From contig CAZQHP010000001.1 of assembly GCA_964593805.1 (NCBI GenBank), positions 517,283 through 581,282 of the forward strand: 64,000 nt of DNA. The letters run 5' to 3'. The notes beneath the pieces are model-generated. The model worked only from the letters and a program-made list of their open reading frames with translations. It ran no database searches and had not been told where the DNA came from. The position numbers and the translations under genes were made by a program. Positions 2,804 through 43,670 of this stretch are shown here, piece after piece (position 1 is the stretch's first letter; each line of letters opens with the position of its first letter). The DNA comes from an uncultured Candidatus Saccharibacteria bacterium (GTDB taxonomy: Bacteria > Patescibacteriota > Saccharimonadia > Saccharimonadales > JBBQAJ01).

Positions 2804-3559
2804 ATGATTATTTTAGGCATGACCGGACCGATTGGCCACGGCAAGACAACTTTTGCCGAAACCCTAACCGAGCTGGAACCTTCTACGGTGCACTTTGAGT
2901 CTTCGCTTATAATCGCGGAAGTCGGCAATGCGATGCAGGCGGCTTTAACGGACATACCGGACCCGTACAACGTGGAACGGCTAAATAATTGGTTGCGCAC
3001 CCTGCCGGCAATATTACTGGAAGTAACCCACGTGCATTGCACGTTTGAACAGGTAAAGTTAGACCAACTTTCCATGGAAGAACACCCGATTGAGTTTCAA
3101 AAACTAATCCTGCACGTTGAAAACCTGCAGCGCAAACCGGAACTTATGCGGCAGCAAATTACCAAAGAAAACAAAGAAAGCTACCGGCCGTTTTTGCAAT
3201 GGCTGGGCGGTTATTTGGTGCAGCGCATAGACAGCGGCATCTGGTATAACGAAATTGTGCGGCGCATCCGTCAGGCTAGTTCCGCCGGCGCCCAGCTGTG
3301 CATTGTGGGCGGTTTGCGCTACCCTACAGACGCGGCTATTTTGCGGGGAGCAGGCGCTTTAATTATCAAAGTCTATCGCCCGGGCCATTTGCAAAGCGAT
3401 TTGATGGATCCGACGGAGCGAGAACGGCAGAACATACAAGTAGACTGTACTATCATGAGCAACGGCACATTGGCGGACGTAAAACGGTTGGCACCTTTGT
3501 TTTATGCGGATCTAAAGGCCAACAAACTGAACGCTATTTACAGAACCGCTACAGTGTAA
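2804..3559 (+). CDS. P-loop NTPase/kinase (dNMP-kinase or dephospho-CoA-kinase-like)
   Basis: 251 aa with a Walker A motif at the extreme N-terminus (GMTGPIGHGKTT). It lies immediately upstream of dcd and tmk-thyX. Confidence 0.55.
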   Translation: MIILGMTGPIGHGKTTFAETLTELEPSTVHFESSLIIAEVGNAMQAALTDIPDPYNVERLNNWLRTLPAILLEVTHVHCTFEQVKLDQLSMEEHPIEFQKLILHVENLQRKPELMRQQITKENKESYRPFLQWLGGYLVQRIDSGIWYNEIVRRIRQASSAGAQLCIVGGLRYPTDAAILRGAGALIIKVYRPGHLQSDLMDPTERERQNIQVDCTIMSNGTLADVKRLAPLFYADLKANKLNAIYRTATV

Positions 3560-3646
3560 ACCATAAACAATTTGTTGTAAGACAATAATACAACAGTAAA
3601 GTCTAGTACTAGCCTGTTCTCACCCGTACAATAGGAGTGAGGATTT

Positions 3647-4348
3647 ATGTCGGTTTATAGCAATATCCAAATCAAAGACGCCATCAAGCGGGGACACATA
3701 GTCTTTCATCCTTACGCCGAGCCAAACATCGCTGGCAGTAGCATAGACGTGACGCTCGGCGAATGGTTTTACCGCACGGAGCGCCCCAGCGAGGGTGGTT
3801 TTTATAACCCGTTTGATCCGGATGCCGTCCAGAAATACTTTGGTGAACCCCTAAAAGCCGAAATACACGCCGAATGGGCGGAAAAACACGGCCGCAAACT
3901 GTTTGCAAACATACCGCCCGGCCACCCAATCATCGTGCTTCGCCCCAAAGAACGCATTTTGGGCCACACCCACGAATTTATAGGCATCAAAGCACCGGGG
4001 ACCAGCACCATGCAGGCCCGCAGTACCTGGGGAAGGAATGGCGTAGCCGTTTGTTTGGACGCCGGCTGGGGAGATCCTGGCTACATAAACCGCTGGACTA
4101 TGGAAATCTACAACATGAACGAGCACGAAAGCGTGGTTTTACCGGTAGGGGAGCGGATTGCGCAGATGGTGTTTTACGAAACTGGCCCGGTTGACAGCGA
4201 GTACAAAAAGCTCAGCGGCAAATATCAGTCGGCCGAAAGTGCCGACCTGCCGTCTATTATCGCAAATTGGCAGCCCGAACAAATGCTGCCGCGCGCCTAC
4301 AAAGACACGCGGAAACTACCGGAGCAGATCAAAGGTTTAAAAGCATGA
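3647..4348 (+). CDS. dcd: dCTP deaminase / dUTPase-superfamily protein
   Basis: 233 aa with a Dcd-like N-terminus (IKDAIKRGHIVFHPYAEPNIAGSSIDVTLG). The RBS is AGGAGTGAGG. Confidence 0.8.
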   Translation: MSVYSNIQIKDAIKRGHIVFHPYAEPNIAGSSIDVTLGEWFYRTERPSEGGFYNPFDPDAVQKYFGEPLKAEIHAEWAEKHGRKLFANIPPGHPIIVLRPKERILGHTHEFIGIKAPGTSTMQARSTWGRNGVAVCLDAGWGDPGYINRWTMEIYNMNEHESVVLPVGERIAQMVFYETGPVDSEYKKLSGKYQSAESADLPSIIANWQPEQMLPRAYKDTRKLPEQIKGLKA

Positions 4349-6714
4349 TGGGCAAGGACAGGCCCGTGGGCACAGGCACGTTTCTAGCCATAGAAGGCAC
4401 CGACGGCTCAGGCAAAGGCACCCAGTTTGCCAAGCTGGAGCAGCGGCTCAAAGGCGAGGGCTACGATGTCGCGACCTTTGATTTTCCTCGCTACGACGAG
4501 CCTTCGTCTTACTTTGTAAAACAATATTTGAACGGCCAATACGGTACCGCCGAACAGGTCGGACCGTATACTGGGTCGCTATTTTACGCGCTTGACCGCT
4601 ACCAGGCCGCCGAACAGATAAGACAGGCGCTGAGTGATGGCAAAATAGTTATCGCCAATCGTTTCACTGGCAGCAATATGGCGCACCAAGGCACCAAATT
4701 CAGGCATGCTGAGGAAAGGCGCGGGTTTTTCATATGGCTGGACAATCTGGAATTTGAAATGCTCAAAATCCCGCGGCCGGACCGGTCAATTGTTTTACGG
4801 GTACCGGCAGAAATTGCCCAAAAACTAGTTGACCAAAAGCAAACGCGCAGCTACACGGACAAAAAACGCGATTTGCACGAAGCTGACCTGGCTCACATGG
4901 AACAAGCCGTGGAAGTATATGATGACCTGTGCCAGCTGTTTCCAAAAGACTTTACCCGTCTCGACTGTGTGCGTGATGGCAAATTAATGGGTGTTGATGC
5001 CGTTGCCAAACTTCTGTGGCAGTCGGTCGAACCGCACCTGCCACCAAAGCCGAAGGGTGGAGGGCCCAGAGCAGACAACAGAGTCGCGGAGACCAAAGTC
5101 GAAAACCCAAAGACAAATGTCCAAAAAACAGACAATCCATATATTGAAAAAACCGCGACCGGCTACCAAGTAACCCCCGCAGGGCAGACATTTTTGGATC
5201 TGAGCGTTACCAATAGCCAGGACGACGTCTACGCCTTTAGCGAAAAACTCAGCCCGACCACCATTGCCGCCGCCATGGCGCGCCTGTCCCGCCGCGGTGA
5301 TGATATGCGTGTTACGCTTTTGGACGAATTCGCACATGCTATGGGCAAAGACCAAAAACTGCTACAACGCGTTATTTCAGCCTACGGCGACGATTCTGTC
5401 CAGCAGCTGGTCGGCCAGCACGTCGTGGTAGAAAACGCCAGTAATTTGCTAACCAAAAAGCTTGAATGGGGCCGTTTGGCCGCTTATTTGGAGCAATCCA
5501 CCCGCTATATATACTTTGATAAAAAAGATGAAAACGGCAAGTACAAATACTTCACGCCGAAACATTTTGACTCAAAAACCGCCAAAACCTATGAAACGGC
5601 TATGGATCAGATATTTGACCTGTATTCAGACATGGTTCACAAACTTACCACGTACGTGCGCGATAAATCTGACGTGCCAAAAGCCGAACAAGACATAGCC
5701 TGGCAAGGTGCCACGCGCGCTCAAGCCTGCGACGCCATACGCGCGGTTTTGCCTGTGGCTACCAAAGCAACCGTAGGTATTTATGCCTCGGGACAAGCTC
5801 TGGAAAGCCTAATTATGCACCTGATGGCGGACGATTTGCCCGAAGCCGTTCATGTAGGCAAACAGCTGCTTGCAGAAGCCCGCAAAGTCATACCCACGTT
5901 TTTAGAGCGAGCCGATAAACCAGAGCGCGGCGGCGCTACTATTGCTTACAGCGCCAATACTCGGCACGCTGTAAAAGAGCTTGCTGGCAAGTATTTGCCA
6001 GACAACCACGCCAGCACCGCGGACGAAGTACAACTGGTGTCTTATTGGCCCCGCAACGAACTGGATCTGGTTCCAGATATGCTGTATGAACACAGCAGCT
6101 TGCCGCTCAAAGATTTGCAAACCCAAACGGCCAAATGGTCGATTGCCAAAAAAGAGGAAGTTTTTTCAGCTTACGTTGGCGAAAGATTAAACCGCCGGCA
6201 CAAGCCGGGCAGAGCCATAGAAAAAGCGCACTACAGCTGGGATTTGGTGTGCGACTACGGGATTTTTCGCGACCTCCAGCGGCACCGCATGGTGGACGAC
6301 ATGAACTGGCAGCTTTTGACTCCGCGCTACGGCTATGAAGTGCCCAAGCTTGTTGAAGACGCTCAGTTGGCTGAAATGTTTGAAAAGTGTTTCGACCTAA
6401 GCCTAGAGTTGTACAGCGCTCTTCAGGCGGCTGGCTACGCGCTGGAGGCCCAGTACGCCACCCTGCTGGGGCACCGCATGCGCTGGAAAGTTACCTATAA
6501 TGCCCGCGAAGCTTTTCATTTCCATGAACTCCGAACCAGTCCGCAGGGTCACCCGGGATACCGTAAATTGGTACTTCAAATGCACGAAAAACTTGCCGAG
6601 GTGCACCCCATGATGAGTGAGGCCATGAAGTTCGTAAATCAAGACGAAGACCCGGAACTGACCCGCCTAGCCGCCGAACGCGCCACCCAGTTCAAGCTCC
6701 AGCAGCTAGATTAA
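4345..6714 (+). CDS. tmk-thyX: Fusion protein: thymidylate kinase (N-terminal) plus long-form flavin-dependent thymidylate synthase ThyX (C-terminal)
   Basis: The Tmk region contains FLAIEGTDGSGKGTQ and DRY. The C-terminal ~530 aa carries ThyX-type motifs (FRDLQRHRM, FHFHELRTSPQGHPGYRKL). The ATG at 4345 overlaps the dcd stop as ATGA, so the upstream ORF extension from 4267 was rejected. Confidence 0.8.
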   Translation: MMGKDRPVGTGTFLAIEGTDGSGKGTQFAKLEQRLKGEGYDVATFDFPRYDEPSSYFVKQYLNGQYGTAEQVGPYTGSLFYALDRYQAAEQIRQALSDGKIVIANRFTGSNMAHQGTKFRHAEERRGFFIWLDNLEFEMLKIPRPDRSIVLRVPAEIAQKLVDQKQTRSYTDKKRDLHEADLAHMEQAVEVYDDLCQLFPKDFTRLDCVRDGKLMGVDAVAKLLWQSVEPHLPPKPKGGGPRADNRVAETKVENPKTNVQKTDNPYIEKTATGYQVTPAGQTFLDLSVTNSQDDVYAFSEKLSPTTIAAAMARLSRRGDDMRVTLLDEFAHAMGKDQKLLQRVISAYGDDSVQQLVGQHVVVENASNLLTKKLEWGRLAAYLEQSTRYIYFDKKDENGKYKYFTPKHFDSKTAKTYETAMDQIFDLYSDMVHKLTTYVRDKSDVPKAEQDIAWQGATRAQACDAIRAVLPVATKATVGIYASGQALESLIMHLMADDLPEAVHVGKQLLAEARKVIPTFLERADKPERGGATIAYSANTRHAVKELAGKYLPDNHASTADEVQLVSYWPRNELDLVPDMLYEHSSLPLKDLQTQTAKWSIAKKEEVFSAYVGERLNRRHKPGRAIEKAHYSWDLVCDYGIFRDLQRHRMVDDMNWQLLTPRYGYEVPKLVEDAQLAEMFEKCFDLSLELYSALQAAGYALEAQYATLLGHRMRWKVTYNAREAFHFHELRTSPQGHPGYRKLVLQMHEKLAEVHPMMSEAMKFVNQDEDPELTRLAAERATQFKLQQLD

Positions 6715-8465: not shown

Positions 8466-8846
8466 ATGGCAACAGATCTAAAGAAATTCGCGGAACAGCT
8501 GGTAAATCTCAGCGTTCTCGAAGTAAATGAACTAGGAACAATCCTCAAAGACGAATATGGCATTGAACCAGCCGCCGCGGCTGTGGCCGTAGCTGCTCCA
8601 GCTGGTGGAGAGGCTGCTCCAGCCGCCGAAGAAAAATCTGAATACGACGTCGTCCTCAAAGACGCTGGCGCTCAGAAGGTAGCTGTTATCAAGGCAGTTA
8701 AGGATATAACCGGTCTGGGTCTTGGCGAAGCCAAGGCTGTAGTAGACGGCGCTCCAAAAACTGTTTTGGAAAAAGCCAAAAAAGAAGACGCCGAAAACGC
8801 CAAAAAAGTGCTTGAAGAAGCCGGCGCTACCGTAGAATTGTCATAA
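8466..8846 (+). CDS. rplL: 50S ribosomal protein L7/L12
   Basis: 126 aa with an Ala-rich hinge and the C-terminal domain sequence [28 protein letters not shown]. Confidence 0.97.
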
Positions 8847-8906
8847 TTCAACGGTTAGCCGGAGTCCGCTACAGCGGATCGGGCAATCCGAGCTTATGGA
8901 CTATCG

Positions 8907-8927
8907 CCGCCCTAGTAGGGCGGTTTT
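8907..8927 (+). terminator. Intrinsic terminator after rplL
   Basis: ccgccc-tagta-gggcgg forms a hairpin followed by TTTT. Confidence 0.7.
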
Positions 8928-9053
8928 AGTTTATGACGTCTAGCCAGCGACAATTGCCCTCTTTACACCATCTTCCGCATCACGTATCCTAAGTACAAGC
9001 GTTATTAACGCCGGTTATTTATATATATGAAACAAATAGAAGGTAAAGTCTAA

Positions 9054-11987
9054 ATGCCTAGGCTCCCGACCCCCGGTGGTGACAATGGAACATGGGGAGA
9101 TGTCCTCAATGAGTTCTTGAGCGTTGAGCATAATGCTGACGGTACCTTGAAGACTTCCGGTTCGCTGGCATCTAAGGCCGATGATAGCGCAGTTGTTAAA
9201 CTCACTGGCGCCCAAACCGTAGCTGGCGTTAAAACTTTTTCTAGCTCGCCGGTGGTACCGGCCCCAACCAGCGGCACAGACGCCGCCAACAAGACTTACG
9301 TAGACACCACAGCCTCCGCCGGTACCCCTGATGCTGACGCCACTACTAAAGGTAAGCTCCAACTAGCTGGCGACCTAGCCGGCACCGCAGCTAGTCCCCA
9401 AATAGCCACTGGCGTCATAGTTAACGCCGACATTAATGCTGCCGCAGCTATAGCCAAGTCCAAGTTGGCTAGTTTGGATATTGTAGATGCTGACGTCAAT
9501 GCCGCCGCTGCCATAGCCCAGTCTAAGATTGCAAGCCTAACTACCGACCTAAGCAACAAGCAACCTCTGGACTCTGACCTAACCACTATTGCAGCCATAG
9601 CTCCCACTAATGACGACGTTATCCAAAGAAAAGCCGGAGCCTGGACCAACCGGACAATGTCTCAGGTCAAAACAGACCTAGCCCTAGTTAAGGGTGATGT
9701 CGGGCTGGGGAGTGTGGACAATACGAGTGATGCTAGCAAAAACAGTGCGACAGCCACGCTTTCTAACAAAACATTAGACAACACCACTGTTGAAACAATC
9801 AAGGCTGGCAACCTCACCGTTCAGGACGACACGGATACTACCAAACAGGCGAAATTTGTGGCTTCCGGCATAACTACCGTTACCACGCGGTCCTATACTC
9901 TGCCTGATGCTACGACTACTTTAGTCGGTACGGACGCAACCCAAACGCTGACCAATAAAACCATCTCAGGTGCCAGCAATACAATTAACAATGTGAGTTT
10001 GGCAACTGGAGTTACTGGCAATTTGCCCGTAACAAACTTGAACTCGGGCACGGGCGCGTCAAGTTCTACTTTTTGGCGCGGAGACGGCGCCTGGTCCACG
10101 CCAGCTGGGGGCGGCGACGCCAGTACCAACACCGCAACTTCTGTAGATAGTGAAATAGTGTTATTTTCTGGAACCGCCGGCAAAACCCTCAAGCGCGCCA
10201 CCGGCTCCGGGATTGTTAAGTCTACCTCCGGCGTATTCTCGGTAGTAAGCGCGCCAAGCGGGGCGATCGTGGGCGACACAGACACCCAAACGCTTACAAA
10301 TAAAACCCTGACTTCACCGGTAATAAATACTCCCACCGGCATAGTCAAAGGCGATGTGGGGCTTGGGAACGTAGACAACACCAGTGACTTAAACAAGCCG
10401 GTCTCCACCGCTCAGCAAGCAGCGATAGATGCTGCCAAACAGGGGTTAGATGTCAAAGATAGTGTCAGGGCTGCAACTACGGCAGCCGGAACATTGGCTA
10501 CTAGCTTTGAAAACCTAGACGCAATTGATGGGGTGACACTTGCCACAGGCGACAGAATACTTATAAAAGATCAAGCTGCTGGCGCGGAAAATGGGATTTA
10601 TACTGTTAATGCCTCTGGAGCTCCAACTAGAGCTACAGATGCCAATATCAGTGCTGAAGTTACGGCCGGAATGTATGTTTTTGTTTCTGAGGGTACGGCC
10701 AATGGAAATAATGGTTTTGTACTTACGACCGATGACCCGATAACTCTAGGCACGACTGCTTTAGTATTTACCCAGTTCAGTGGCGCCGGTCAGATCACAG
10801 CTGGAGCGGGCCTTACCAAAACCGGAAACACGCTTGATGTTGGTGCTGGCAGCGGTATTAGCGTTGCGGCCGACGGCGTTGCTATAGATACGGCAGTTGT
10901 TGCAAGTAAAACAGATAACCTTTCGGTATTCGCGGCGACGACCTCGGCTCAACTGGCAGGGGTTGTGTCGGACGAAACAGGCACCGGGGCATTAGTGTTC
11001 GCTAATTCGCCAACCCTGGTTACGCCGGCTCTTGGCACGCCTGCTTCTGGAGTAGCCACAAACCTGACTGGAACCGCAGCCGGCCTAACCGCGGGCAACG
11101 TAACAACCAACGCTAACCTGACCGGCCCGATAACTTCTACTGGCAACGCCACGGCCGTGGCAGCCCAAACCGGTACCGGCTCGACGTTTGTCATGAATAC
11201 CTCGCCAACCCTGGTAACTCCAACACTGGGCGCGGCTACCGCCACTAGCATAAACAAAGTTGCCATTACCGCTCCTGCTATCGGATCGACACTGACTATC
11301 CCAGACGGAGTTACTCTGACTGGTCCTGCAACCAGCGGAACGGCCATGACTTTGGGTAATGCTGAAACTGTTACAGGCGTTAAGACTTTTGGCTCGGCTG
11401 GCGCTGTTGGCAAACTTCAGGTAGCTGGCACTACCAGTGGTGCGACCATATTGGATGCTACTGCCGCCGCCAGCGGCACGCTTACCCTGCCGGCTGCAAC
11501 TGATACTTTAGTAGGCCGGGCAACGACCGATACGCTGACCAATAAAACTCTGACAGCACCGGTCATTTCTACCATTTCAAACACCGGCACGCTGACACTG
11601 CCTACATCGACAGACACATTAGTTGGCAAAACCACCACCGATACGCTGACCAACAAAAGAATTACTCCTAGGGTAAGTTCCGAAGCTTCGTCGGCAACGC
11701 CGACGATCAACACCGACAACGTCGACGCGCACTCTATCACCGCGCTAGCCGTTGCCATTACTTCATTCACTACCAACTTATCCGGTACGCCAACCAACTT
11801 CCAAAAGCTTACCATCCGCATCAAAGACAACGCCACCGCCCGTGCGATTACCTGGGGCACCTCATTTGAGGCCAAGGGCGCTGCCTTACCAACCACTACA
11901 GTCGTGTCCAAAGTTCTGACCATTGGCTTTATTTACGACACCGTAACTAGCAAATGGGGCTGTGTAGCCACGGCCCAGGAGGCTTGA
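9054..11987 (+). CDS. Phage-tail-fibre-like protein 1 (977 aa)
   Basis: Its N-terminus, [22 protein letters not shown], is shared with the 13832 paralog. It has the fibre-shaft motif [27 protein letters not shown] and about five (T/S)L(T/S)NK(T/R) repeats. A central domain ([15 protein letters not shown]...RATD...LVFTQF) is typical of phage tail-fibre proteins. The composition is Ala/Thr/Gly-rich. Confidence 0.8.
9295..9740 (+). repeat. 446-bp direct repeat shared by the two fibre genes, copy 1
   Basis: It aligns without indels to 14034-14479 (offset 4739). The first 259 bp (9295-9553) are identical, and about 10 scattered substitutions follow. Confidence 0.95.
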
Positions 11988-11991
11988 GCCC

Positions 11992-13725
11992 GTGGCGAAT
12001 CGTTATTGGGTTGGCGGTACGGCATCTTGGGACGCCACGGCCGGTACAAAATGGGCAACTACTTCTGGTGGGGCAGGTGGCTCGGCTGTCCCTACAGCCG
12101 CCGACGACGTATTTCTAGATGGCCCCTCCGGAGCTGTAACGGTAACAATTAGTGGCTCACGAGTCTGCCGATCATTTACATGTACCGGCTTTACCGGCAC
12201 TCTTACGGGTACAAGCTCGCCAGTTTTATCAATTGGTGATGCCAGCGGCGGGGCTATGACACTAGTTGCTGGCATGACGGTTGGCACTGCGCCCACGCTG
12301 AATTTTGTGTCTACTTCCAACAACGGCGGGACCGGCTGGGCTATTACTACTGGCGGTCAGACTTTGAGCCATATGACATTTGACGGTGTCGGCGGCAAAT
12401 GGGTTTTGCAAGATACAGTCAGCCTTTTTTTTGGAGCTGTGACCCTGACTAACGGCACGCTTGATACGAACAGCAAAACCATGAACATACACAACTTTGC
12501 CAGCAGCAATTCCAATACCCGTACCCTAACACTTGGATCGTCTACCATTAACTGTGATCGCCTGCTTTCTGCCGGGGCTTTCTGGGAGACAACTACCACT
12601 ACCGGCCTGACCTTTAGCGGCGCGTCGTCTACGATAGTTTTGGGCCCGACAAGCAGCGGGCTGACTCGTAACTTTAATGGCGGCGGGTTAACCTACGGGA
12701 CACTATCCTATACGGCTACCGGTTCAACTGGCCGGATGGTAGTTGCCGGATCAAATACCTTTAACACCATCAATGTTGGTTCGGGTAGATCTATCGCTTT
12801 TACGGTCGGGACCACAAACACAGTCACTAACTGGAACGTAAACGGCGCTCTGTTTGAATATCAAAGAATATCCGGTACGTCAGGCGACTATATTTCAACG
12901 CCAGACTCGGCGGCCCTGTCAATAACCGGCGACATTACCATACTCACCAGGGTAGCCATGGATTCCTGGACGCCCTCATCATCAAAAATGTTCGTAGCCA
13001 AACGGGCCGTTACAGGCAACCAGCGCAGTTATCACTGGAATATATCTGGTACTGGTTTTATGGCATTTGTAATTTCCACTGATGGCACCGCTGTGATTGC
13101 AGCGACAGCTGATGCTGCTACCGGCTTCGCTGCCGGCAGTACCAACTGGGTGCTAGTATCTAGGCGCTCTTCCGACGGCCGAGTCCAGTTTTATAAAGCC
13201 GACGGCTCGCTGACAAATCCCGCAGCTTCAGACTTTACGCAGATTGGGACGGACCAGACTCCTGCAGCTGGAGCAATTTTTGACGGCACCGCTCCGCTGG
13301 AGGTAGGCTCTTCGGACTTAGGCACGGTTCAGCCAGCTCCATGCAACGTCTACAGAACAATTGTCTACAACGGGCTGTTTTCTACCGCCGCGTTTGGCGG
13401 TACAATTCAGTTTGACGCCGACTTCACCAGAAAAAAGTTCGGAGACAATACGTTTACCGAGTCATCAGCCAACGCCGCCACAGTTACCATGAACGGCTCA
13501 ACTATTTACGGCGATGGTAGAGTAGATGTAGACTCAGATACTGTGGGTTCACATTTTCTAACCAAGGCTACGGCCGGTGTTTTCGCTAGTGATTACCTAG
13601 TAGTGACGCGTTCCGTGGCTTCGGGCGGTACTTGGTACGCTGGAGGCCATTCTGTTGACGGAACAGCCAACTCCGGCTGGATATTTCAAACATACGGCGA
13701 CGGACGGTTTTTGAGCATGTTTTAG
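11992..13725 (+). CDS. Secreted/structural protein with a C-terminal LamG (concanavalin-A-like lectin) type domain
   Basis: 577 aa with a GTG start and AGGAGG 8 nt upstream. The N-terminal motif is RYWVGGTASWDATAGTKWATTSGGAGGSAVPTAADDVFLD. The C-terminal region (SGDYISTPDSAALSITGDITIL..WVLVSRRSSDGRVQFYKADG) resembles LamG/Laminin_G_3. Confidence 0.65.
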   Translation: MANRYWVGGTASWDATAGTKWATTSGGAGGSAVPTAADDVFLDGPSGAVTVTISGSRVCRSFTCTGFTGTLTGTSSPVLSIGDASGGAMTLVAGMTVGTAPTLNFVSTSNNGGTGWAITTGGQTLSHMTFDGVGGKWVLQDTVSLFFGAVTLTNGTLDTNSKTMNIHNFASSNSNTRTLTLGSSTINCDRLLSAGAFWETTTTTGLTFSGASSTIVLGPTSSGLTRNFNGGGLTYGTLSYTATGSTGRMVVAGSNTFNTINVGSGRSIAFTVGTTNTVTNWNVNGALFEYQRISGTSGDYISTPDSAALSITGDITILTRVAMDSWTPSSSKMFVAKRAVTGNQRSYHWNISGTGFMAFVISTDGTAVIAATADAATGFAAGSTNWVLVSRRSSDGRVQFYKADGSLTNPAASDFTQIGTDQTPAAGAIFDGTAPLEVGSSDLGTVQPAPCNVYRTIVYNGLFSTAAFGGTIQFDADFTRKKFGDNTFTESSANAATVTMNGSTIYGDGRVDVDSDTVGSHFLTKATAGVFASDYLVVTRSVASGGTWYAGGHSVDGTANSGWIFQTYGDGRFLSMF

Positions 13726-13831
13726 GCGCTAAACACTATACAACCCCCCGCCAATCCGGTATATTTAGACACAAGCGGTAACAGTTTTGGATAGACTGAT
13801 ATGAAAAACATAAAATCAAAGGTACTTATAA

Positions 13832-15922
13832 ATGCCTAGGCTCCCAACCCCCGGCGGCGACAATGGAACGTGGGGAGATGTCCTCAACGAATTTTTAGGT
13901 GTCTCTCATGAAACTGACGGCACCCTAAAAGCCTCTGCCAAAGCAGATAAAGTCTCCAAATCCGGCGACACCATGACCGGGGCTCTGACTCTTCCCGGTG
14001 ACCCAACCTCCGGGCTTCATGCAGCTACAAAATCTTACGTAGACACCACAGCCTCCGCCGGTACCCCTGATGCTGACGCCACTACTAAAGGTAAGCTCCA
14101 ACTAGCTGGCGACCTAGCCGGCACCGCAGCTAGTCCCCAAATAGCCACTGGCGTCATAGTTAACGCCGACATTAATGCTGCCGCAGCTATAGCCAAGTCC
14201 AAGTTGGCTAGTTTGGATATTGTAGATGCTGACGTCAATGCCGCCGCTGCCATAGCCCAGTCTAAGATTGCAAGCCTAACTACCGACCTAAGTAACAAGC
14301 AACCTCTGGACTCTGACCTAACCGCCATTGCAGCCCTAGCTCCCACTAATGACGACGTTATCCAAAGAAAAGCCGGAGCTTGGACCAACCGCACCATGGC
14401 TCAGGTCAAAACAGACCTAGCCCTAGTCAAGGGTGATGTTGGGCTGGGGAGTGTGGACAATACGAGTGATGCTAGCAAACCGGTGTCAACGGCCACCCAA
14501 ACGGCGTTGGATCTAAAAGCTAACGACAGTGCGGTTGTAAAGTTGACTGGCGACCAGACCGTCGCGGGGATCAAGACGTTTTCGTCTTCGCCGATTGTCC
14601 CGGTACCGACAACTTCAACTCAAGCGGCCCAAAAAAATACCGTTGACACTGCCATATCAGCACTGAGAACAGCCAACGATGGCTATGGTACAGCCGTAAA
14701 TACCGCCACTGCGGGCGTTTTTAAGATTGATCAAGTTATTGACGTACAGACTTTTACGACAACAGGTGCGTATAACTGGGTACCGCCAACTTGGGCTGCC
14801 TCAACGTCTACTGTTGAAGTAGAAGTAGTTGGCGCTGGTGGGGGCGGTGGGGGCGCTCGGCGAGGTGCTACTGGTACTATTCGCGGCGGAGGTGGCGGCG
14901 GAGCCTCTGGCAATCACTCGATTAAAACATTTTTATACGGAGACTTAACCCTGCCGAACGGTATTTGGATAAGTGGCAATGTCGGGGCTGGCGGAACGGC
15001 TGGTGCAGGAGCCTCGGCAGATAGTACAGATGGAAGTGACGGGGGAGATGGTGGTGCATCATATTTTGGTATTTATCTTTACGCTTCAGGCGGGGGTGGT
15101 GGGAAAAAAGGCACCAGTACCGACGGTGGGGCAGGCGGTGTAGTTGGATCGAGAGGCATGTTCCCAGGCCTACCAGGAGCAAAAGGCGGTGGTCTAACTA
15201 CTGCGGCTTCGCTGGCTACATACGGGCTATTTGACAATTCCTACGGCGAAGTTACGCAAGCCACCAGCAAATCGACTGGCGTAACGCTAAATTCCCGAAC
15301 TGGGCAAATAACTATGAATAACGCGTCATTGGCCGCTACAACAAGCGTTAGCTTTACGCTGACCAACTCGGCAATACTTATAAACGATGATGTTGAGGTC
15401 AATATTGCCAGCGCGGCAACCACCAATTCATATTCCGTTACGGTGGATTTGGTTGCAAACGGGTCATGTCGAATACATGTGCGCAACGTGACAGCGGGCG
15501 CACTTGGCGAAGCGCTAGTACTAAACTTTAACGTAATCAAAGCCATGAACGCTTTTGGTTCGGCGCAGGTGGCAAGTGGCGCTGGTGGCGGAGGTGAGGG
15601 GCTTACAGCCGCAAATGCGTCAGCAACAGGCTCGGACGGCGGAGCTGCAAACGGCTATACCGACGGCTCCACTGCAGGCGGTATTCACGGGGTTATCTTA
15701 TCTAATGTCGCTGCAGCTGGAACGACCGCCGGACCATTCATAGCATCTGGCGGCGGTGGCGGACAGCGTGGTTCCGGCGCCGGGCTTGGAGGCGGAGCCG
15801 GTGGCGCAGGCGGTTCGCCGGGCGGCGGTGGTGGCGGCGGTGGCTGTAACAGCAATGGATCTGCTAGTGGTGCTGGTGGTGTCGGTGGCGCCGGAAAGGT
15901 TAGAATTGTTACTCGGCCATGA
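13832..15922 (+). CDS. Phage-tail-fibre-like protein 2 with a glycine-rich C-terminal region (696 aa)
   Basis: It shares the N-terminus of the 9054 protein. The motif SKSGDTMTGALTLPGDPTSGLHAATKSYVD matches the phage tail-fibre repeat (GDTMTG type). The C-terminal half carries G6-G8 runs, as in actinophage minor-tail/glycine-rich proteins. Confidence 0.8.
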   Translation: MPRLPTPGGDNGTWGDVLNEFLGVSHETDGTLKASAKADKVSKSGDTMTGALTLPGDPTSGLHAATKSYVDTTASAGTPDADATTKGKLQLAGDLAGTAASPQIATGVIVNADINAAAAIAKSKLASLDIVDADVNAAAAIAQSKIASLTTDLSNKQPLDSDLTAIAALAPTNDDVIQRKAGAWTNRTMAQVKTDLALVKGDVGLGSVDNTSDASKPVSTATQTALDLKANDSAVVKLTGDQTVAGIKTFSSSPIVPVPTTSTQAAQKNTVDTAISALRTANDGYGTAVNTATAGVFKIDQVIDVQTFTTTGAYNWVPPTWAASTSTVEVEVVGAGGGGGGARRGATGTIRGGGGGGASGNHSIKTFLYGDLTLPNGIWISGNVGAGGTAGAGASADSTDGSDGGDGGASYFGIYLYASGGGGGKKGTSTDGGAGGVVGSRGMFPGLPGAKGGGLTTAASLATYGLFDNSYGEVTQATSKSTGVTLNSRTGQITMNNASLAATTSVSFTLTNSAILINDDVEVNIASAATTNSYSVTVDLVANGSCRIHVRNVTAGALGEALVLNFNVIKAMNAFGSAQVASGAGGGGEGLTAANASATGSDGGAANGYTDGSTAGGIHGVILSNVAAAGTTAGPFIASGGGGGQRGSGAGLGGGAGGAGGSPGGGGGGGGCNSNGSASGAGGVGGAGKVRIVTRP
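14034..14479 (+). repeat. 446-bp direct repeat shared by the two fibre genes, copy 2
   Basis: See 9295-9740. Confidence 0.95.
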
Positions 15923-16737
15923 GCATAGCCGTAGCCGCCAGAGTTTCATCCTACAGAGTTGTTTTTGACGGGCAGTCCCTAAATTCATACGGATCCCCCA
16001 ACCATTATCCTGCGAAACTAATGTCTGGGAGAGGCATACCCTGGATTGATGTTGCTATAGCAGGCTATGCTTGGCTCCAGCTGAAAACAATGCTAGACAA
16101 CAGAGTAACGCCCCACCTTGTACGTGGTTCAATCACAATACTGATTGGTGTGGGGGGAACAACAGATTACGCACTAAACCAGACCGGCCAAAACGTTTAC
16201 GATTCTGAGGTTACCTGGGCTACAAATGCCCGAGCAGCCGGTGCCGACTACATTATTCAAACAACCACAACCCCGTCTACATCCTTTGGCGCCAACACAA
16301 CCGTCGCTTCTGGCTCAAATGGTGTTAATACCAATACTTTCGCTGGTTCGGGAACACTAAATGTAGCTAGTACTACCGATGCACCTTCGTCAGGTACAAT
16401 TATCGTTGCCACTGGCGGCACGCCAGCCACCATTACTTACACCGGTACAACATCTACAACTTTTACTGGTTGCAATACGACGTCAGGCGGTGGCGTTATG
16501 AGCACAAACGGTACGGTTAGGAACATTATATATTCCCGGTTTTACGACGGCAATGCGCTGGTGATGGCTGACGCTTCAGCCGCCTTTGACTACAAGGTAG
16601 ATTTGGCTGGTGATTCTCGCTTAGCAGATCCAACTAACACAACTTATTACATAGATGGCACCCACCCCACCAATGCCGGCAGGCAAGTCATGGCCGACCT
16701 AGTCGCGCCTGCCCTGAACGCGATTCTCGCACTGTAG
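15919..16737 (+). CDS. SGNH/GDSL-family hydrolase-like protein (putative esterase)
   Basis: 272 aa, with its ATG overlapping the previous stop as ATGA. Block I is FDGQSLN near the N-terminus and block V is DGTHPT near the C-terminus. A Thr/Gly/Ser-rich insertion is present. Confidence 0.55.
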   Translation: MSIAVAARVSSYRVVFDGQSLNSYGSPNHYPAKLMSGRGIPWIDVAIAGYAWLQLKTMLDNRVTPHLVRGSITILIGVGGTTDYALNQTGQNVYDSEVTWATNARAAGADYIIQTTTTPSTSFGANTTVASGSNGVNTNTFAGSGTLNVASTTDAPSSGTIIVATGGTPATITYTGTTSTTFTGCNTTSGGGVMSTNGTVRNIIYSRFYDGNALVMADASAAFDYKVDLAGDSRLADPTNTTYYIDGTHPTNAGRQVMADLVAPALNAILAL

Positions 16738-16866: not shown

Positions 16867-17376
16867 ATGTCAGATGTACCAGAAAAACAAATCAAACGGT
16901 TAAAATCCTTGATTCAAGAGGCGGAGACTAGCTTGGCAGCAGCCAAGGAGTTGCTGATGAGCCTGGTTGGCGAGGATCCGGTTGTAGCCGCGGCTATCGC
17001 CGAAGAACCGCTGGGCAAAATTATAGAGGGCGTTTTTGACGGCCAAACCATGGTGGGTTCTGACGCCAAAAACTACCCCGTACCGGCAAACTACGCTAGT
17101 AAATCTAAGCTCGTCCAGGGTGACATATTGAAGCTGACAATTGCCGATGACGGTTCGTTTTTGTACAAACAGATTGGCCCGGTTCCCCGCAAGCAAGTGG
17201 TGGGCATGCTCAAACTGGAAAACGGCCACTACTTTGTAGACGTTGGCGGCAAACAGTACCGCGTGCTACTGGCCAGCGTCACCTATTTCAAAGCCAAGCC
17301 CGGCGACCAAGTCAGCGTGAACGTTCCAGAAGACGACACCCACGCCGAATGGGCCGCCCTTGAAGCTGCCCTTTAA
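16867..17376 (+). CDS. Hypothetical protein
   Basis: 169-aa ORF with an N-terminal helical region. No motif was recognised. Confidence 0.5.
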   Translation: MSDVPEKQIKRLKSLIQEAETSLAAAKELLMSLVGEDPVVAAAIAEEPLGKIIEGVFDGQTMVGSDAKNYPVPANYASKSKLVQGDILKLTIADDGSFLYKQIGPVPRKQVVGMLKLENGHYFVDVGGKQYRVLLASVTYFKAKPGDQVSVNVPEDDTHAEWAALEAAL

Positions 17377-17476
17377 AAAGCTAACGGCATACAGCTTACA
17401 GTAAACAGTTTGTAGCTTCAAAAAAACTAAACTTCCTCTGTCAGCCGTCAGCTGTCTGCTGTATACTTATTGGACT

Positions 17477-18922
17477 ATGGGCAAAGCACTATACCGGAAA
17501 CACCGGCCTAAAAAACTATCTGAAATTATCGGCCAACAGCACATCACCGATACGTTAGAACGCGCCCTAAAACAGGGAACTGTTAGCCATGCTTACCTGC
17601 TTACCGGCCCGCGCGGAGTCGGCAAAACCAGTATTGCTAGAATCCTGGCCTACGAAGTCAACGGCCTGCCTTATGACGAAGAAGCTACTCACCTGGACAT
17701 TATAGAAATAGACGCTGCCAGCAACCGCCGGATAGACGAAATCCGCGAGCTCAAAGATCGCGTAAACATTGCGCCCACAAGCGCCAAGTACAAGGTCTAC
17801 ATAATTGACGAAGTCCACATGCTTACCAAAGAGGCTTTTAACGCGCTGCTAAAAACGCTCGAAGAGCCGCCAGAACACGCCATATTTATCCTGGCCACCA
17901 CCGAAGCCCACAAAGTGCCGGCCACCATCACCAGTCGCACCCAGCGTTTTACCCTTAAGCCCATAGAGACCGACAAAGTAGTGTCTCACCTCAAAGAAAT
18001 TGCCCAAGCCGAAAAAATCACGATTGACGGGGCTGCCCTGGAACTCGTAGCCGCTCACGGCGAAGGAAGTTTCCGAGATAGCATCAGCCTGCTAGACCAA
18101 ATAAGGCACGCCAGTGGCCATATTGGACTAAAAGATGTCCAGCAAGCGATTGGACAGGCTCCAGACGAGTTGTTAAATGACTTGCTGAACGCCGTTAGCA
18201 GCCGCGATGTCCAGGCGGTTGGCGCCAGCCTGGCCGCACTGCGCTCGCACGGCGTCCAGGCCGCCCAAATCGCCCACCAACTATCCAAGCTACTGCGCCG
18301 GGGCTTGCTGGACAACGAACTACAGTTGCCGGCCGAGCAAACCCTGCGGCTCCTGGGAGAACTGCTGCACATACCAGCCGCCCATGATCCTGCCGTAGCA
18401 CTTGAGCTGGCTCTTTACAGCACCGCCTTGTCAGACAAACATCATGAGTCCCTAGACATGAGCCCTGAGCAAATGCCCGCAAATCCAAAGAAAAAAGAAG
18501 AAAAGGTCGAAGAGCAAACGCCAGCAAAAAGTCCACCAGAAGATGAAAAGACCCCCGCCTATCACGACTCAACGGGCGTTCTTGATGCCGAGTCTTGGCA
18601 AGAGGTTCTGGCCGCCGTCAAAGCCAAGTACAACACTTTGTATGGTATCGCGCGGATGGCGTCGCCTAGTTTTAGTAAAGACAAACTAACTTTGGCTTTT
18701 GTGTTTGCCTTCCATCAGAAAAAACTGGGTGACAGCAAAAACCGGCAACTGCTGCAAGACATAATTGCCCAGGTCACCGGAGCCAATGTAAGCGTGGAGT
18801 GCGTGCTTGATAAAACGGCCGAACCAGCGCCAGCTATAACCAAACCAGAGATAAAACTAGCCAGTGCCGTCAATCTGGAAACCATAAGCAATATCTTTGG
18901 CGGCGCAGAAATAGTAGAGTAG
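17477..18922 (+). CDS. dnaX: DNA polymerase III subunit gamma/tau
   Basis: 481 aa containing AYLLTGPRGVGKTS (Walker A), IIDEVHML and SRTQRF. Confidence 0.93.
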   Translation: MGKALYRKHRPKKLSEIIGQQHITDTLERALKQGTVSHAYLLTGPRGVGKTSIARILAYEVNGLPYDEEATHLDIIEIDAASNRRIDEIRELKDRVNIAPTSAKYKVYIIDEVHMLTKEAFNALLKTLEEPPEHAIFILATTEAHKVPATITSRTQRFTLKPIETDKVVSHLKEIAQAEKITIDGAALELVAAHGEGSFRDSISLLDQIRHASGHIGLKDVQQAIGQAPDELLNDLLNAVSSRDVQAVGASLAALRSHGVQAAQIAHQLSKLLRRGLLDNELQLPAEQTLRLLGELLHIPAAHDPAVALELALYSTALSDKHHESLDMSPEQMPANPKKKEEKVEEQTPAKSPPEDEKTPAYHDSTGVLDAESWQEVLAAVKAKYNTLYGIARMASPSFSKDKLTLAFVFAFHQKKLGDSKNRQLLQDIIAQVTGANVSVECVLDKTAEPAPAITKPEIKLASAVNLETISNIFGGAEIVE

Positions 18923-43010: not shown

Positions 43011-43076
43011 AAATTGATAGTAGCACAATCCTGTTTTGACTGCGACAGATTGATGCGCCTATACTTAGAACGTATC

Positions 43077-43670
43077 ATGAAAAGCATACCTTGGCCCTCG
43101 GACAAACTACTAAAACGAGTAAACCACGCACTCCTGGCCAGCATTATTTTGACCAATGGTTATGTCCTGCTGATGCCTTTGTTGCCAAAGGTGAATTACG
43201 AACTCAAACAGCGTATTACAAAGCCCGTAAAAGTCAATCCGGCGGATTCCAACAGCGTAGGTAGCATTGACCGGTCGCGCGACCACCTGATATTGCCAAC
43301 CATGCAGCTGGATGAGCCGGTTTATTTTGGCACCAATGCCTCGCTAGTCCACAGGGGCATCTGGCAGCGCCCACAGACAAATACGCCAGACAAAGGAGGC
43401 AATACCGTGCTGGTAGGCCACCGCTTTACCTACGCCGGAGCGGCGGTGTTTTATAACCTGGACAAACTAAAGACTGGCGACGACGTCTACTTTGCGTACA
43501 ACCAAAAAATTTATCATTACAAAGTAACCAGCTCTGCCATAGTGCCGCCGACGGCTGTGGAAGTAGAAGCACCTAGCCATGAAACCAAACTCACGCTCTA
43601 CACCTGCGCGCCGCTTTTAACTGCCAAAGACCGTTTGGTATATGTAGCCGAACTAAAGGAAATCTTATGA
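43077..43670 (+). CDS. Sortase family transpeptidase
   Basis: It has an N-terminal TM anchor, the catalytic His context VLVGHRF, and the TLxTC motif (LTLYTCAP). The promoter is TTGACT-18-TATACT upstream of the ATG at 43077. Confidence 0.8.
   Translation: MKSIPWPSDKLLKRVNHALLASIILTNGYVLLMPLLPKVNYELKQRITKPVKVNPADSNSVGSIDRSRDHLILPTMQLDEPVYFGTNASLVHRGIWQRPQTNTPDKGGNTVLVGHRFTYAGAAVFYNLDKLKTGDDVYFAYNQKIYHYKVTSSAIVPPTAVEVEAPSHETKLTLYTCAPLLTAKDRLVYVAELKEIL

What the first reader, a model, noticed from the sequence alone, without database searches (positions are those of the whole stretch)
9295..14479. 446-bp direct repeat (259 bp perfect) shared by the two fibre genes gives a modular, recombination-ready architecture
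Positions 9295-9740 and 14034-14479 align without indels, and the first 259 bp are identical. The first ~65 bp of both genes (9054-9120 and 13832-13898) are also about 90% identical. The shaft motif [21 protein letters not shown] occurs at different positions in the two proteins. The paralogs therefore share N-terminal and shaft modules but have unrelated C-terminal (putative receptor-binding) parts. Such a long identical tract inside otherwise diverged genes suggests recent gene conversion. Because the repeats are direct, homologous recombination between them would delete 4.7 kb and create a chimeric fibre. This could be a low-tech specificity-switching mechanism.
Basis: seen in the sequence. 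Interest (0 to 1): 0.6.

Follow-up and report, generated by a model that had tools for sequence, protein, structure and literature searches.

The report
Shared recombining module in two fibre genes
Two neighbouring phage-fibre-like genes in a small bacterial chromosome share a nearly identical 446-bp stretch that was recently homogenised by recombination; this is ordinary module shuffling in a hypervariable fibre locus, with no evidence of a programmed specificity switch.

Summary
The repeat is real. Positions 9295-9740 and 14034-14479 are 436/446 identical without indels, the first 259 bp are perfect, and both copies are in the same codon phase. The setting is a cellular chromosome, not a phage: rplJ-rplL lie upstream, dnaX-dnaB downstream, on a 773,622-bp contig that is probably Patescibacteria/CPR.

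Recent gene conversion is well supported. There are 0 differences over about 67 synonymous sites in the left part, against dS of about 0.15 in the right 187 bp. The other shared motif is only 63% identical in DNA. The module is 97% identical to its paralog but 71% to its positional ortholog. The only difference from an independent assembly over about 21 kb lies inside the repeat.

The switch idea is not supported. The predicted deletion product would be 94% identical to gene B, so it removes fibre A and its lectin-like partner M without creating a new tip. The change is one-way. No chimeric allele was found, but no informative population data were available.

Relatives show that the rplL-dnaX interval is a hypervariable fibre island. 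One relative has a single "A-head/B-tail" gene, and another has different distal modules. This is a new member of a known kind. The CPR-chromosome setting is the more interesting part.

The parts
8466..8846 (+). rplL (ribosomal protein L7/L12), the conserved left flank of the fibre island
   Evidence: Pfam Ribosomal_L12 and L12_N. rplL also lies directly upstream of the first fibre gene in relatives L081 and L229.
8906..8924 (+). Terminator-like hairpin after rplL. A promoter-like site at 8962-8990 suggests that A has its own transcription start (inferred).
   Evidence: Consensus scan only; sequence.
9054..11987 (+). Fibre gene A (977 aa). Order of parts: N-terminal motif, V motif, module S, long mosaic shaft, then a conserved C-terminal about 120 aa.
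   Evidence: ORF and translation. PHROG tail-fibre and virion structural families. 4158 homologs with module-wise mosaic matches. Identical to P0001 on a 773,622-bp NCBI contig.
9054..9120 (+). Shared N-terminal motif [22 protein letters not shown], copy in A
   Evidence: 58/67 nt identical to 13832-13898. The motif recurs at the start of proteins in Saccharimonadales and other MAGs and in Rhodococcus phages at 41-44% identity.
9189..9263 (+). V motif ([24 protein letters not shown], BppL_N-like), copy in A, upstream of S
   Evidence: Only about 63% nt identity to the B copy, so the divergence is old.
9295..9740 (+). Repeat copy 1, module S (A residues 81-229, DUF5907-type repeats). 9295-9553 is identical to copy 2. 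It ends in the junction motif [17 protein letters not shown].
9494..9494 (+). The only site that differs from the independent ENA assembly. The window has C, as does the B copy at 14233. The ENA A copy has T (GAC to GAT, synonymous).
11992..13725 (+). Gene M (577 aa), starting 5 nt after A's stop. Predicted beta-helix plus LamG/pentraxin-like lectin domain. Probably the glycan-binding partner of A's C-terminus.
   Evidence: AlphaFold model with pLDDT 93.4. Foldseek hits to the phage CBA120 tailspike TSP2, CBM40, pentraxins and LamG, and to uncultured Caudovirales ConA-like and parallel beta-helix proteins. The A-type C-terminus and an M ortholog co-occur in L163 and L165.
13832..15922 (+). Fibre gene B (696 aa). 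Order of parts: the same N-terminal 22 aa, an X segment (GDTMTG-type), module S, V motif, then a glycine-rich distal domain.
   Evidence: Pfam Gly_rich_2, DUF5907 and BppL_N. PHROG tail fibre and minor tail protein families. PDB 8i4m fibre. Identical to P0033 on the same 773,622-bp contig.
14034..14479 (+). Repeat copy 2, module S (B residues 68-216)
14531..14605 (+). V motif, copy in B, downstream of S
15919..16737 (+). Gene C272, whose ATG overlaps B's stop. A homolog follows the last fibre gene in relatives L163 and L229. Function unknown.
   Evidence: No Pfam or NCBIfam assignment.
16867..18922 (+). Conserved right flank: a 169-aa protein (97% identical in L163) and dnaX

Best explanation
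The window comes from a small bacterial chromosome, probably Patescibacteria/CPR. The interval between rplL and dnaX is a hypervariable island of phage-type fibre genes: A, its lectin-like partner M, B, and C272. These genes are built from interchangeable modules: an N-terminal motif, a V or X segment, a proximal shaft module S, and distal parts.

The 446-bp direct repeat is module S, present in both A and B. Its near-identity is a product of homologous recombination. An older shared copy survives in the right 187 bp, with dS of about 0.15. A more recent non-reciprocal exchange (gene conversion) homogenised the left 259 bp up to the edge of homology.

The same homology makes deletion or duplication of the 4739-bp unit possible. 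That deletion would only remove fibre A's distal part and M, leaving a B-like fibre. The repeat is therefore best read as a footprint and substrate of ordinary module shuffling, not as a switching device.

Shown: the repeat, its divergence pattern, the chromosomal context, the mosaic family, and the structural variation of the locus among relatives. Inferred: the conversion mechanism (presumably RecA-type), the direction of events, the A-M partnership, and the function of the fibres.
For: Repeat and sharp borders.

Two-epoch divergence: all 10 mismatches fall in the right 187 bp. Six codons differ synonymously and 3 carry amino-acid changes. There are 0 differences over about 67 synonymous sites in the left 259 bp. 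The probability of a mismatch-free gap this long, if the mismatches were placed uniformly, is about 2e-3.

Old versus recent: the V motif copies share about 75% of residues but only 63% of nucleotides, whereas S is 97.8% identical in DNA.

Paralog closer than ortholog: S of A is 97% identical in protein to S of B, but 71% to S of P0002. P0002 is the positional ortholog after rplL, and its middle modules are 87-90% identical to A.

Independent assemblies of the same strain: L078, L079 and L080 all break in or at the repeat and otherwise match 100%. The single difference in about 21 kb is at 9494, inside the repeat, where the window's A copy carries B's base.

Module combinations exist elsewhere. 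P0126/P0127 have an A-type head, the V motif and a B-type glycine-rich tail; P0126's contigs show it lying between rplL and a C272 homolog, with the start of a D169 homolog downstream on L229. P0008/P0009 have an X-S head with an A-type middle. L163, whose dnaB is 94% identical, has a different A middle, an M ortholog, and a 302-aa second fibre lacking both S and the Gly-rich domain.

Recombination genes in the window: recR and an AddA-like helicase-nuclease.

Similar long near-identical repeats occur in fibre loci of unrelated genomes such as L038, L056 and L137.
Against: No strain-level population data could be examined. Conversion is inferred from pattern and was not observed.

The 9494 difference could be a polishing or consensus artefact, or within-population polymorphism, and not a fixed conversion event.

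A very recent duplication or acquisition of the left part of S would give the same zero-divergence tract.

At DNA level the S region and the middle of A differ from ortholog L081 by similar amounts (72% versus 77%). The ortholog comparison is therefore much clearer for protein than for DNA.

The taxonomic assignment to CPR rests on genome size, gene content and the labels of relatives, not on a marker phylogeny.
Confidence: 0.7

Rival explanations
1. One reading: the direct repeats are a low-tech specificity switch. Homologous recombination deletes 4739 bp and creates a chimeric fibre with a new specificity.
For: The repeats are direct, 446 bp long with 259 bp perfect, and in the same codon phase, so deletion would be in frame. 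A single-gene 'A-head/B-tail' form of the locus exists in a relative (P0126 in L229-L232). The locus differs greatly between close relatives.
Against: The deletion product (A 1-229 plus B 217-696, 709 aa) is 94% identical to B over its whole length, so no new distal domain arises. The event only loses A's distal part and M, and it cannot be reversed without an external copy. No A/B chimera at 90% identity or more was found: B's cluster has one member. The natural single-gene form lacks S entirely and corresponds to a junction at the V motif, not at S. It is only 73-79% identical, so it reflects evolutionary divergence and not a recent switch.
Confidence: 0.08
2. The duplicate S arose from one recent acquisition event, not from conversion. 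For example, a circular or linear incoming cassette (B-type head, S, A distal, M) integrated by a single crossover within S, which automatically leaves direct repeats flanking the insert.
For: The 4739-bp unit, read circularly, contains a complete gene (B head, S, A distal), then M, then the B upstream region. Head-S-tail recombinants of that type exist (P0008/P0009). A relative has a single-fibre locus. Transformation was discovered and exploited in a Saccharibacterium (PMC10633639).
Against: A single crossover between diverged donor and resident modules would leave mismatches spread over the whole module. It would not produce the observed 259-bp perfect tract followed by a 5% diverged tract, so a later conversion step is still needed. 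No near-identical donor was found in the genome, metagenome or viral collections.
Confidence: 0.15
3. The perfect identity is an assembly or polishing artefact. Multi-mapping reads homogenised two similar but distinct copies.
For: The window's A copy carries B's base at 9494, whereas an independent k=139 assembly links T to A's right flank and C to B's right flank. Mis-polishing would cause exactly this kind of error.
Against: In the ENA assembly both copies are recovered separately, each linked to its own right flank, and they are identical to each other over repeat offsets 60-258 except at offset 199. ENA and Logan contigs break where a true long repeat would force them to. At most one site is affected.
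Confidence: 0.05
4. Identity is maintained by selection. Both fibres must present the same proximal shaft, for example to dock onto one anchor or to co-assemble, so converted variants are favoured.
For: Both proteins also keep an identical 22-residue N-terminus. dN/dS in the diverged part of S is low, with about 3 replacement and about 6-7 synonymous changes.
Against: Selection on the protein cannot explain zero synonymous differences over 67 sites. Relatives have second fibres with no S at all (the L163 302-aa gene; P0126), so a shared S is not required. This could at most favour the fixation of conversion events.
Confidence: 0.1

Closest known systems
Mosaic evolution of phage tail-fibre genes by recombination at conserved motifs, for example the T-even gp37/gp38 distal fibre locus and the P2/Mu/lambda side fibres (cited from my own knowledge: Sandmeier 1994; Tetart et al. 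1998)
   Same: The fibre proteins are built from interchangeable modules bounded by short conserved motifs, here KGDVGLGxVDNTSD and AVVKLTG. Heads and tails are recombined in different combinations across genomes. Sequence homology to real phage fibres was confirmed.
   Different: Here the genes lie in the core chromosome of a small cellular genome, between rplL and dnaX, with no virion genes nearby. The shared module is duplicated in two tandem genes of one genome.
Concerted evolution, that is gene conversion between paralogous genes in bacteria (for example tuf genes, rRNA operons, surface-protein paralogs)
   Same: A tract of perfect identity with sharp borders lies inside otherwise unalignable paralogs. 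The paralog is closer than the ortholog. Synonymous sites are homogenised.
   Different: Only one module of two mosaic genes is affected, and the rest of the genes are not homologous.
Antigenic or adhesin variation by recombination with repeated segments in reduced genomes, such as Mycoplasma genitalium mgpB/mgpC with MgPar and Neisseria pilE/pilS
   Same: This is a small, host-dependent genome in which repeated segments of surface-type protein genes act as recombination substrates.
   Different: Both copies here are parts of complete genes, each with its own start and ribosome-binding site. Only two copies are seen in the window. The exchange homogenises a conserved shaft module and does not diversify a variable region.
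Site-specific tail-fibre switches (Mu Gin, P1 Cin, R64 shufflon) and diversity-generating retroelements
   Same: They serve the same purpose as the one proposed, changing the specificity of a fibre or adhesin.
   Different: The repeats are direct, not inverted. No invertase, recombinase or reverse transcriptase was found among the window ORFs scanned. The mismatches are not adenine-specific: 3 of 10 have A in copy 1 and none have A in copy 2.

Membership tests
Phage-type modular tail-fibre proteins (DUF5907 / BppL_N / Gly_rich_2 containing) | Sequence homology to experimentally established phage fibre proteins | tested here: met
   B residues 80-337 match the fibre gp28 of cyanophage P-SCSP1u (PDB 8i4m, E=1.3e-7). 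PHROG tail fibre and minor tail protein families match. tblastn hits 22 actinophage records. Pfam DUF5907 and Gly_rich_2 score above their cut-offs in B.
Phage-type modular tail-fibre proteins (DUF5907 / BppL_N / Gly_rich_2 containing) | Encoded within a phage or prophage next to other virion genes | tested here: not met
   The neighbours are rplJ, rplL, dnaX, dnaB, recR and cysS. No capsid, terminase, tail or integrase families were found in the ORFs scanned. Relatives of the family lie between secY and infA (L083) and next to tatAC (L082, L233).
Phage-type modular tail-fibre proteins (DUF5907 / BppL_N / Gly_rich_2 containing) | Elongated trimeric fibre structure with a distal receptor-binding domain | tested here: inconclusive
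   The model of B residues 217-696 had pLDDT 53 and was not used. No multimer prediction was possible. The separate protein M gave a confident beta-helix plus lectin-like model.
Gene conversion / concerted evolution of paralogs | The paralogous tract is more similar within the genome than to the orthologous tract of a relative | tested here: met
   S(A) versus S(B) is 97% identical in protein. S(A) versus S of the positional ortholog P0002 is 71%, while the adjacent A modules are 87-90% identical to P0002. At DNA level the contrast with L081 is weak, 72% versus 77%.
Gene conversion / concerted evolution of paralogs | Sharp tract borders and heterogeneous synonymous divergence within the homologous region | tested here: met
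   0 of about 67 synonymous sites differ in 9295-9553, against about 6-7 of about 45 in 9554-9740. The probability of such a gap under uniform placement is about 2e-3. Identity falls to chance outside 9295-9740.
Gene conversion / concerted evolution of paralogs | A conversion event directly seen between otherwise identical genomes | tested here: inconclusive
   There is one difference in about 21 kb, at 9494 inside the repeat, in the direction of homogenisation. An assembly or polishing artefact, or a polymorphism, cannot be excluded.
   The predicted chimera is 94% identical to B along its whole length.
   No reads were available. Short-read contigs stop in the repeat. There is no near-identical strain in the JGI metagenome contigs. 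No chimera was found in the protein collection, but the strain is seen in only a few samples.
Site-specific inversion switches / shufflons | Inverted repeats flanking alternative C-terminal segments, plus an adjacent invertase | tested here: not met
   The repeats are direct. No recombinase family was found in the scanned ORFs.
Diversity-generating retroelement | A reverse transcriptase plus a template/variable repeat pair that differs at adenines | tested here: not met
   No RT was found among the scanned ORFs of the window. Mismatch types are mixed, and only 3 of 10 involve A. The repeat lies in a shaft module, not in a C-type lectin tip.
Silent-cassette antigenic variation (pilE/pilS, MgPar type) | Promoterless partial donor cassettes that recombine into one expression site | tested here: not met
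   Both copies lie inside full-length ORFs, each with its own start codon and AAGGT-type ribosome-binding site. There are only two copies in the 64-kb window. The rest of the genome was not visible.

The most novel reading that the evidence does not exclude
A Patescibacteria/CPR bacterium carries phage-derived fibres in its own core chromosome and uses them as its host-recognition apparatus. The fibres include a tailspike/lectin-like tip protein (M) and have relatives in actinobacteriophages. The rplL-dnaX island would then be the organism's host-range determinant, rebuilt between close relatives by recombination at shared modules such as S and V, including shifts between one-fibre and two-fibre states.
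Probability: 0.25. Interest if true: 0.75.

Novelty: new member of a known kind. Interest (0 to 1): 0.45.

Why it matters
For the repeat itself, this is a clean, quantifiable example of gene conversion and module exchange in fibre-type genes. It is useful but conceptually familiar.

The setting is less expected. Phage-type fibres and a tailspike/lectin-like partner sit in core operons of a very small, probably episymbiotic genome, and they are remodelled between relatives whose DnaB is 94% identical. If these proteins mediate attachment to host cells, the locus would give a concrete, testable handle on host specificity in Patescibacteria. In the papers I searched, I found adhesins mentioned but no description of this family.

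There is also a practical lesson. Short-read assemblies break at this repeat and yield a 4.8-kb contig with overlapping ends, which could be mistaken for a circular element.

Tried and rejected
1. Phage or prophage origin of the window. Rejected: the genes are housekeeping, there is no megablast match to 50,697 phage records, and viral contigs show only distant module matches.
2. DGR. Rejected: no RT was found, and the mismatches are not adenine-specific.
3. Invertase switch. Rejected: the repeats are direct and there is no recombinase.
4. Search for the deletion or chimera allele. An exact look-up of A found nothing. B's 90% cluster has one member. Homolog searches with A and B returned no high-identity chimera. 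The scan of JGI metagenome contigs found nothing closer than 64%, so the test was uninformative, not negative.
5. Looking for two fibre genes with the N-terminal motif in one locus elsewhere. None of the 162 loci fetched by then had this, so concerted evolution could not be tested in other genomes. Long near-identical repeats in fibre loci do occur in unrelated taxa.
6. Structure of B's distal part. The model confidence was low, so it was not searched.
7. Pfam, NCBIfam and PHROG annotation of M, C272, D169 and the 400-aa ORF gave nothing.
8. Firm taxonomy was not achieved. The only labelled housekeeping match among fetched loci is a 'Woesebacteria' MAG (NusG 74%, RplA 59%). Fibre and M homologs with names are labelled Saccharimonadales.
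9. Literature searches for this protein family in CPR found nothing specific.

Full report
**1. Observation**

At an offset of 4739 bp, window 9295-9740 and 14034-14479 align without gaps and are 436/446 identical. The first 259 bp (9295-9553) are identical (also family D1 and a 453-bp, 97.35% megablast hit).

Outside these limits, identity at the same offset is 25-39 per 100 nt, which is chance level, so both borders are sharp.

- A: 9054-11987, 977 aa.
- B: 13832-15922, 696 aa.

The repeat encodes A residues 81-229 and B residues 68-216, in the same codon phase.

The two gene starts are 58/67 identical, and residues 1-22 are the same.

The AVVKLTG.QTVAG.KTFSSSP motif (here called V; it matches Pfam BppL_N) lies before the repeat in A, at residue 46. 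It lies after the repeat in B, at residue 234.

One nuance comes from an independent assembly and is described in section 3.

**2. What the genes are and where they lie**

The window is not a phage. Genes identified around the locus:

| Position relative to A-B | Genes |
|---|---|
| Upstream | nusG, rplK, rplA, a nucleotide-metabolism cluster, rplJ, rplL |
| Downstream | dnaX, dnaB, ybaB, recR, cysS, glycosyltransferases, a tRNA-Gln, tatC, a sortase with a 1727-aa SpaA-repeat protein, an AddA-like helicase-nuclease, ATP synthase subunits |

A and B are identical to proteins P0001 and P0033. Both lie on one NCBI contig of 773,622 bp. This is a genome of the size typical of Patescibacteria/CPR.

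Named relatives of the fibre and M proteins are labelled Saccharimonadales. The same strain occurs in an Ohio groundwater metagenome, SRR8863434 (PMC11549363 read). I did not obtain a marker-gene placement, so 'CPR, probably Saccharimonadia-like' is an inference.

A and B are fibre-like by homology:
- PHROG tail-fibre, minor-tail and virion structural families match.
- Pfam DUF5907, BppL_N and Gly_rich_2 match.
- The solved fibre gp28 of cyanophage P-SCSP1u matches (8i4m, E=1.3e-7).
- tblastn against 50,697 phage records hit only actinobacteriophages: Streptomyces 17, Rhodococcus 4, Mycobacterium 1. This includes the N-terminal 93 residues at 41-44% identity in Rhodococcus phages.

The family is very large and mosaic. 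There are 4158 and 1682 hits at E below 1e-10 for A and B, and each module of A finds its best match in a different protein.

Other members also sit in core operons of similar genomes: between secY and infA (L083) and beside tatAC (L082, L233).

Gene M (11992-13725) starts 5 nt after A's stop and has no Pfam, PHROG or NCBIfam match. It does have more than 3,700 homologs.
- With a 30-sequence alignment, AlphaFold gave a confident model (pLDDT 93.4, pTM 0.88).
- The model is a beta-helix followed by a LamG/pentraxin/CBM40-like jelly roll.
- Its best PDB match is the phage CBA120 tailspike TSP2. Its best viral matches are ConA-like and parallel beta-helix proteins of uncultured Caudovirales.
- In two other contigs (L163, L165) an A-type C-terminus (72-79% identical over about 115-120 residues) is followed directly by an M ortholog (65-67%). 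P0002 has a different C-terminus and is followed by a different gene.

From this I infer that A's C-terminus docks M and that M is the glycan-binding tip.

**3. Is the identity recent? Evidence for gene conversion**

*Mismatch pattern.* All ten mismatches lie in the right 187 bp. Six codons differ synonymously and three carry amino-acid changes, giving dS of about 0.15 with low dN/dS. The left 259 bp contains about 67 synonymous sites and has no difference. If ten mismatches were placed uniformly, the probability of a gap this long is about 2e-3.

*Contrast with the V motif.* The V copies are conserved in protein but only 80/126 identical in DNA. This is what long-separated homologs under selection look like.

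The S module therefore has a two-step history:
1. An older shared copy.
2. A later homogenisation of its left part, ending exactly where homology ends (9295).

*Ortholog comparison.* L081 has rplL (85% identical) directly upstream of P0002, the positional ortholog of A.

| Comparison | Protein identity |
|---|---|
| P0002 vs A residues 230-815 | 87-90% |
| P0002 vs A module S | 71% |
| A module S vs B module S | 97% |

At DNA level the contrast with L081 is weaker, 72% versus 77%.

*Independent assemblies of the same strain.*

| Locus | Source | Window span | Match |
|---|---|---|---|
| L078 | ENA ERZ27284378 contig | 14094-30285 | identical |
| L079 | ENA ERZ27284378 contig | 9355-14172 | one mismatch |
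| L080 | Logan SRR8863434 contig | 9711-14063 | identical |

All three contigs end in or at the repeat, as expected if the repeat is real and longer than the assembler's k.

The one mismatch in about 21 kb is at 9494, a synonymous change (GAC/GAT). The ENA A copy has T. The window's A copy has C, which is the base of the B copy. In the k=139 assembly, T is linked to A's right flank and C to B's right flank.

This is either a conversion event or polymorphism separating near-identical genomes, or a polishing error in the window's assembly. Either way it is caused by the repeat. It also shows that the two copies are truly near-identical in an independent data set, which excludes a wholesale artefact.

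**4. What recombination between the repeats would do**

Because S lies near the N-terminus of both genes, an S-S crossover gives A(1-229)+B(217-696). This protein is 709 aa long and 94% identical to B along its whole length.

No new distal domain is created. The event deletes A's 748 distal residues and M, and it is irreversible. The reciprocal product (B head, A distal) would arise only as a circle or a tandem duplication.

I found no such allele of this strain:
- B's 90% cluster has one member.
- No high-identity chimera appears in the homolog lists.
- The metagenome scan had nothing closer than 64%.

The strain is rare in the collections and short reads cannot cross the repeat, so this absence says little.

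**5. Comparative picture: a hypervariable fibre island**

The rplL-dnaX interval in four genomes:

| Locus | Gene order |
|---|---|
| Window | rplL / A-M-B-C272 / D169-dnaX |
| L163, L164 (DnaB 94%, D169 97%, DnaX 70% identical) | A' with an unrelated middle but A-type C-terminus, M', a 302-aa fibre with the same N-terminal motif but neither S nor a Gly-rich domain, a C272-like gene, D169, dnaX |
| L229-L232 (four samples; RplL 87%, seen on L229) | rplL, one 402-aa fibre (P0126), a C272-like gene, start of D169 (L229) |
| L081 | rplL, A-like P0002 with another C-terminus, an unrelated next gene |

P0126 consists of an A-type head with the V motif (73% identical to A residues 1-88), joined directly to B's glycine-rich tail (79% and 62% identical).

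P0008 and P0009 combine a B-type X-S head with an A-type middle.

However, they are diverged orthologous arrangements. The natural single-gene form corresponds to a junction at V, with no S.

This supports module shuffling by recombination at conserved motifs as the evolutionary mode of the locus. It does not support a within-population switch at S.

**6. Comparison with known systems**

The closest matches are:
- The classical mosaicism of phage tail-fibre genes, with recombination at conserved motifs (cited from my own knowledge).
- Gene conversion between bacterial paralogs.

The locus is not an inversion switch or shufflon: the repeats are direct and no invertase was found. It is not a DGR: no RT was found among the ORFs scanned, and the mismatches are not A-specific.

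It is not a silent-cassette system. Both copies lie in complete genes with their own starts and ribosome-binding sites, and there are only two copies in the window.

**7. Verdict**

- The repeat is a new member of a known kind.
- The more unusual aspect lies outside the original claim. Phage-type fibres with a tailspike/lectin-like partner are core-chromosomal and hypervariable in a probable CPR episymbiont. They are candidates for host-recognition structures, which remains speculative.

Noticed in passing
window 44445-49628 (- strand); repeat 46326-46655 / 47796-48125; sortase at 43014-43670: A 1727-aa protein with about ten SpaA-type prealbumin-fold domains contains a second long near-identical direct repeat (330 bp, 96.4%, spacing 1470 bp, in frame). 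A sortase gene lies next to it. This repeat and the fibre repeat were the only long near-identical repeats the self-megablast reported in the window, and both lie in surface-type genes.
   Followed up: partly
window 2804-6714: The rplKA and rplJL clusters are separated by a nucleotide-metabolism block: a dNMP-kinase-like gene (Pfam DNMK), a dCTP-deaminase-like gene, and an 815-aa ORF that fuses thymidylate kinase with two ThyX-like stretches. rpoB/rpoC do not follow rplL, where they would be expected from the usual bacterial gene order (my own knowledge); the fibre island does.
   Followed up: partly
window 11992-13725 (gene M) and homologs P0220-P0338: M belongs to a family of more than 3,700 proteins. 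Nearly all of the 120 listed hits have no Pfam domain (two carry one). M folds confidently as a beta-helix plus a LamG/pentraxin-like lectin. Orthologs follow an A-type C-terminus in L163 and L165, which suggests a conserved fibre-tip pair.
   Followed up: partly
L083 10001-13030; L082 10001-11782; L233 1549-3447: Other members of the fibre family lie inside core operons of similar small-genome contigs. One is between secY and infA in the ribosomal protein super-operon, and others are beside tatA/tatC. They appear to be cellular genes and not prophage cargo.
   Followed up: partly
L163 2-2104 and 4854-5456: In a close relative the A-type fibre carries a different middle region. Its motifs (GINDAN, DGIHPND) look by eye like an SGNH/GDSL esterase. 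C272 of the window gave only a very weak NCBIfam hit to a GDSL lipase (E=0.016). This is a possible glycan-deacetylase module and was not tested.
   Followed up: no
window 9054-9800 used as query: All 22 phage records with protein similarity to the N-terminal 249 residues are phages of Actinobacteria (Streptomyces, Rhodococcus, Mycobacterium). Actinobacteria are the host phylum of cultivated Saccharibacteria (PMC10633639). The database is rich in actinophages, so the significance is uncertain.
   Followed up: no
L079 (window 9355-14172): The short-read contig between the repeats is 4818 nt long. Its last 139 nt are identical to the start of repeat copy 1 (window 9295-9433), which overlaps the contig's own start (window 9355) by about 79 nt. 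Such a contig could be misread as a circular element or excision product.
   Followed up: yes
window 16867-17376: A 169-aa protein with no family match is 97% identical in relative L163. This is more conserved than DnaB (94%) or DnaX (70%) in the same pair.
   Followed up: no
window 54480-55385 and 56090-56668 (- strand): An N6/N4 DNA methylase gene and an AbiV-type HEPN gene lie close together. They are possible phage-defence genes in this small genome.
   Followed up: no
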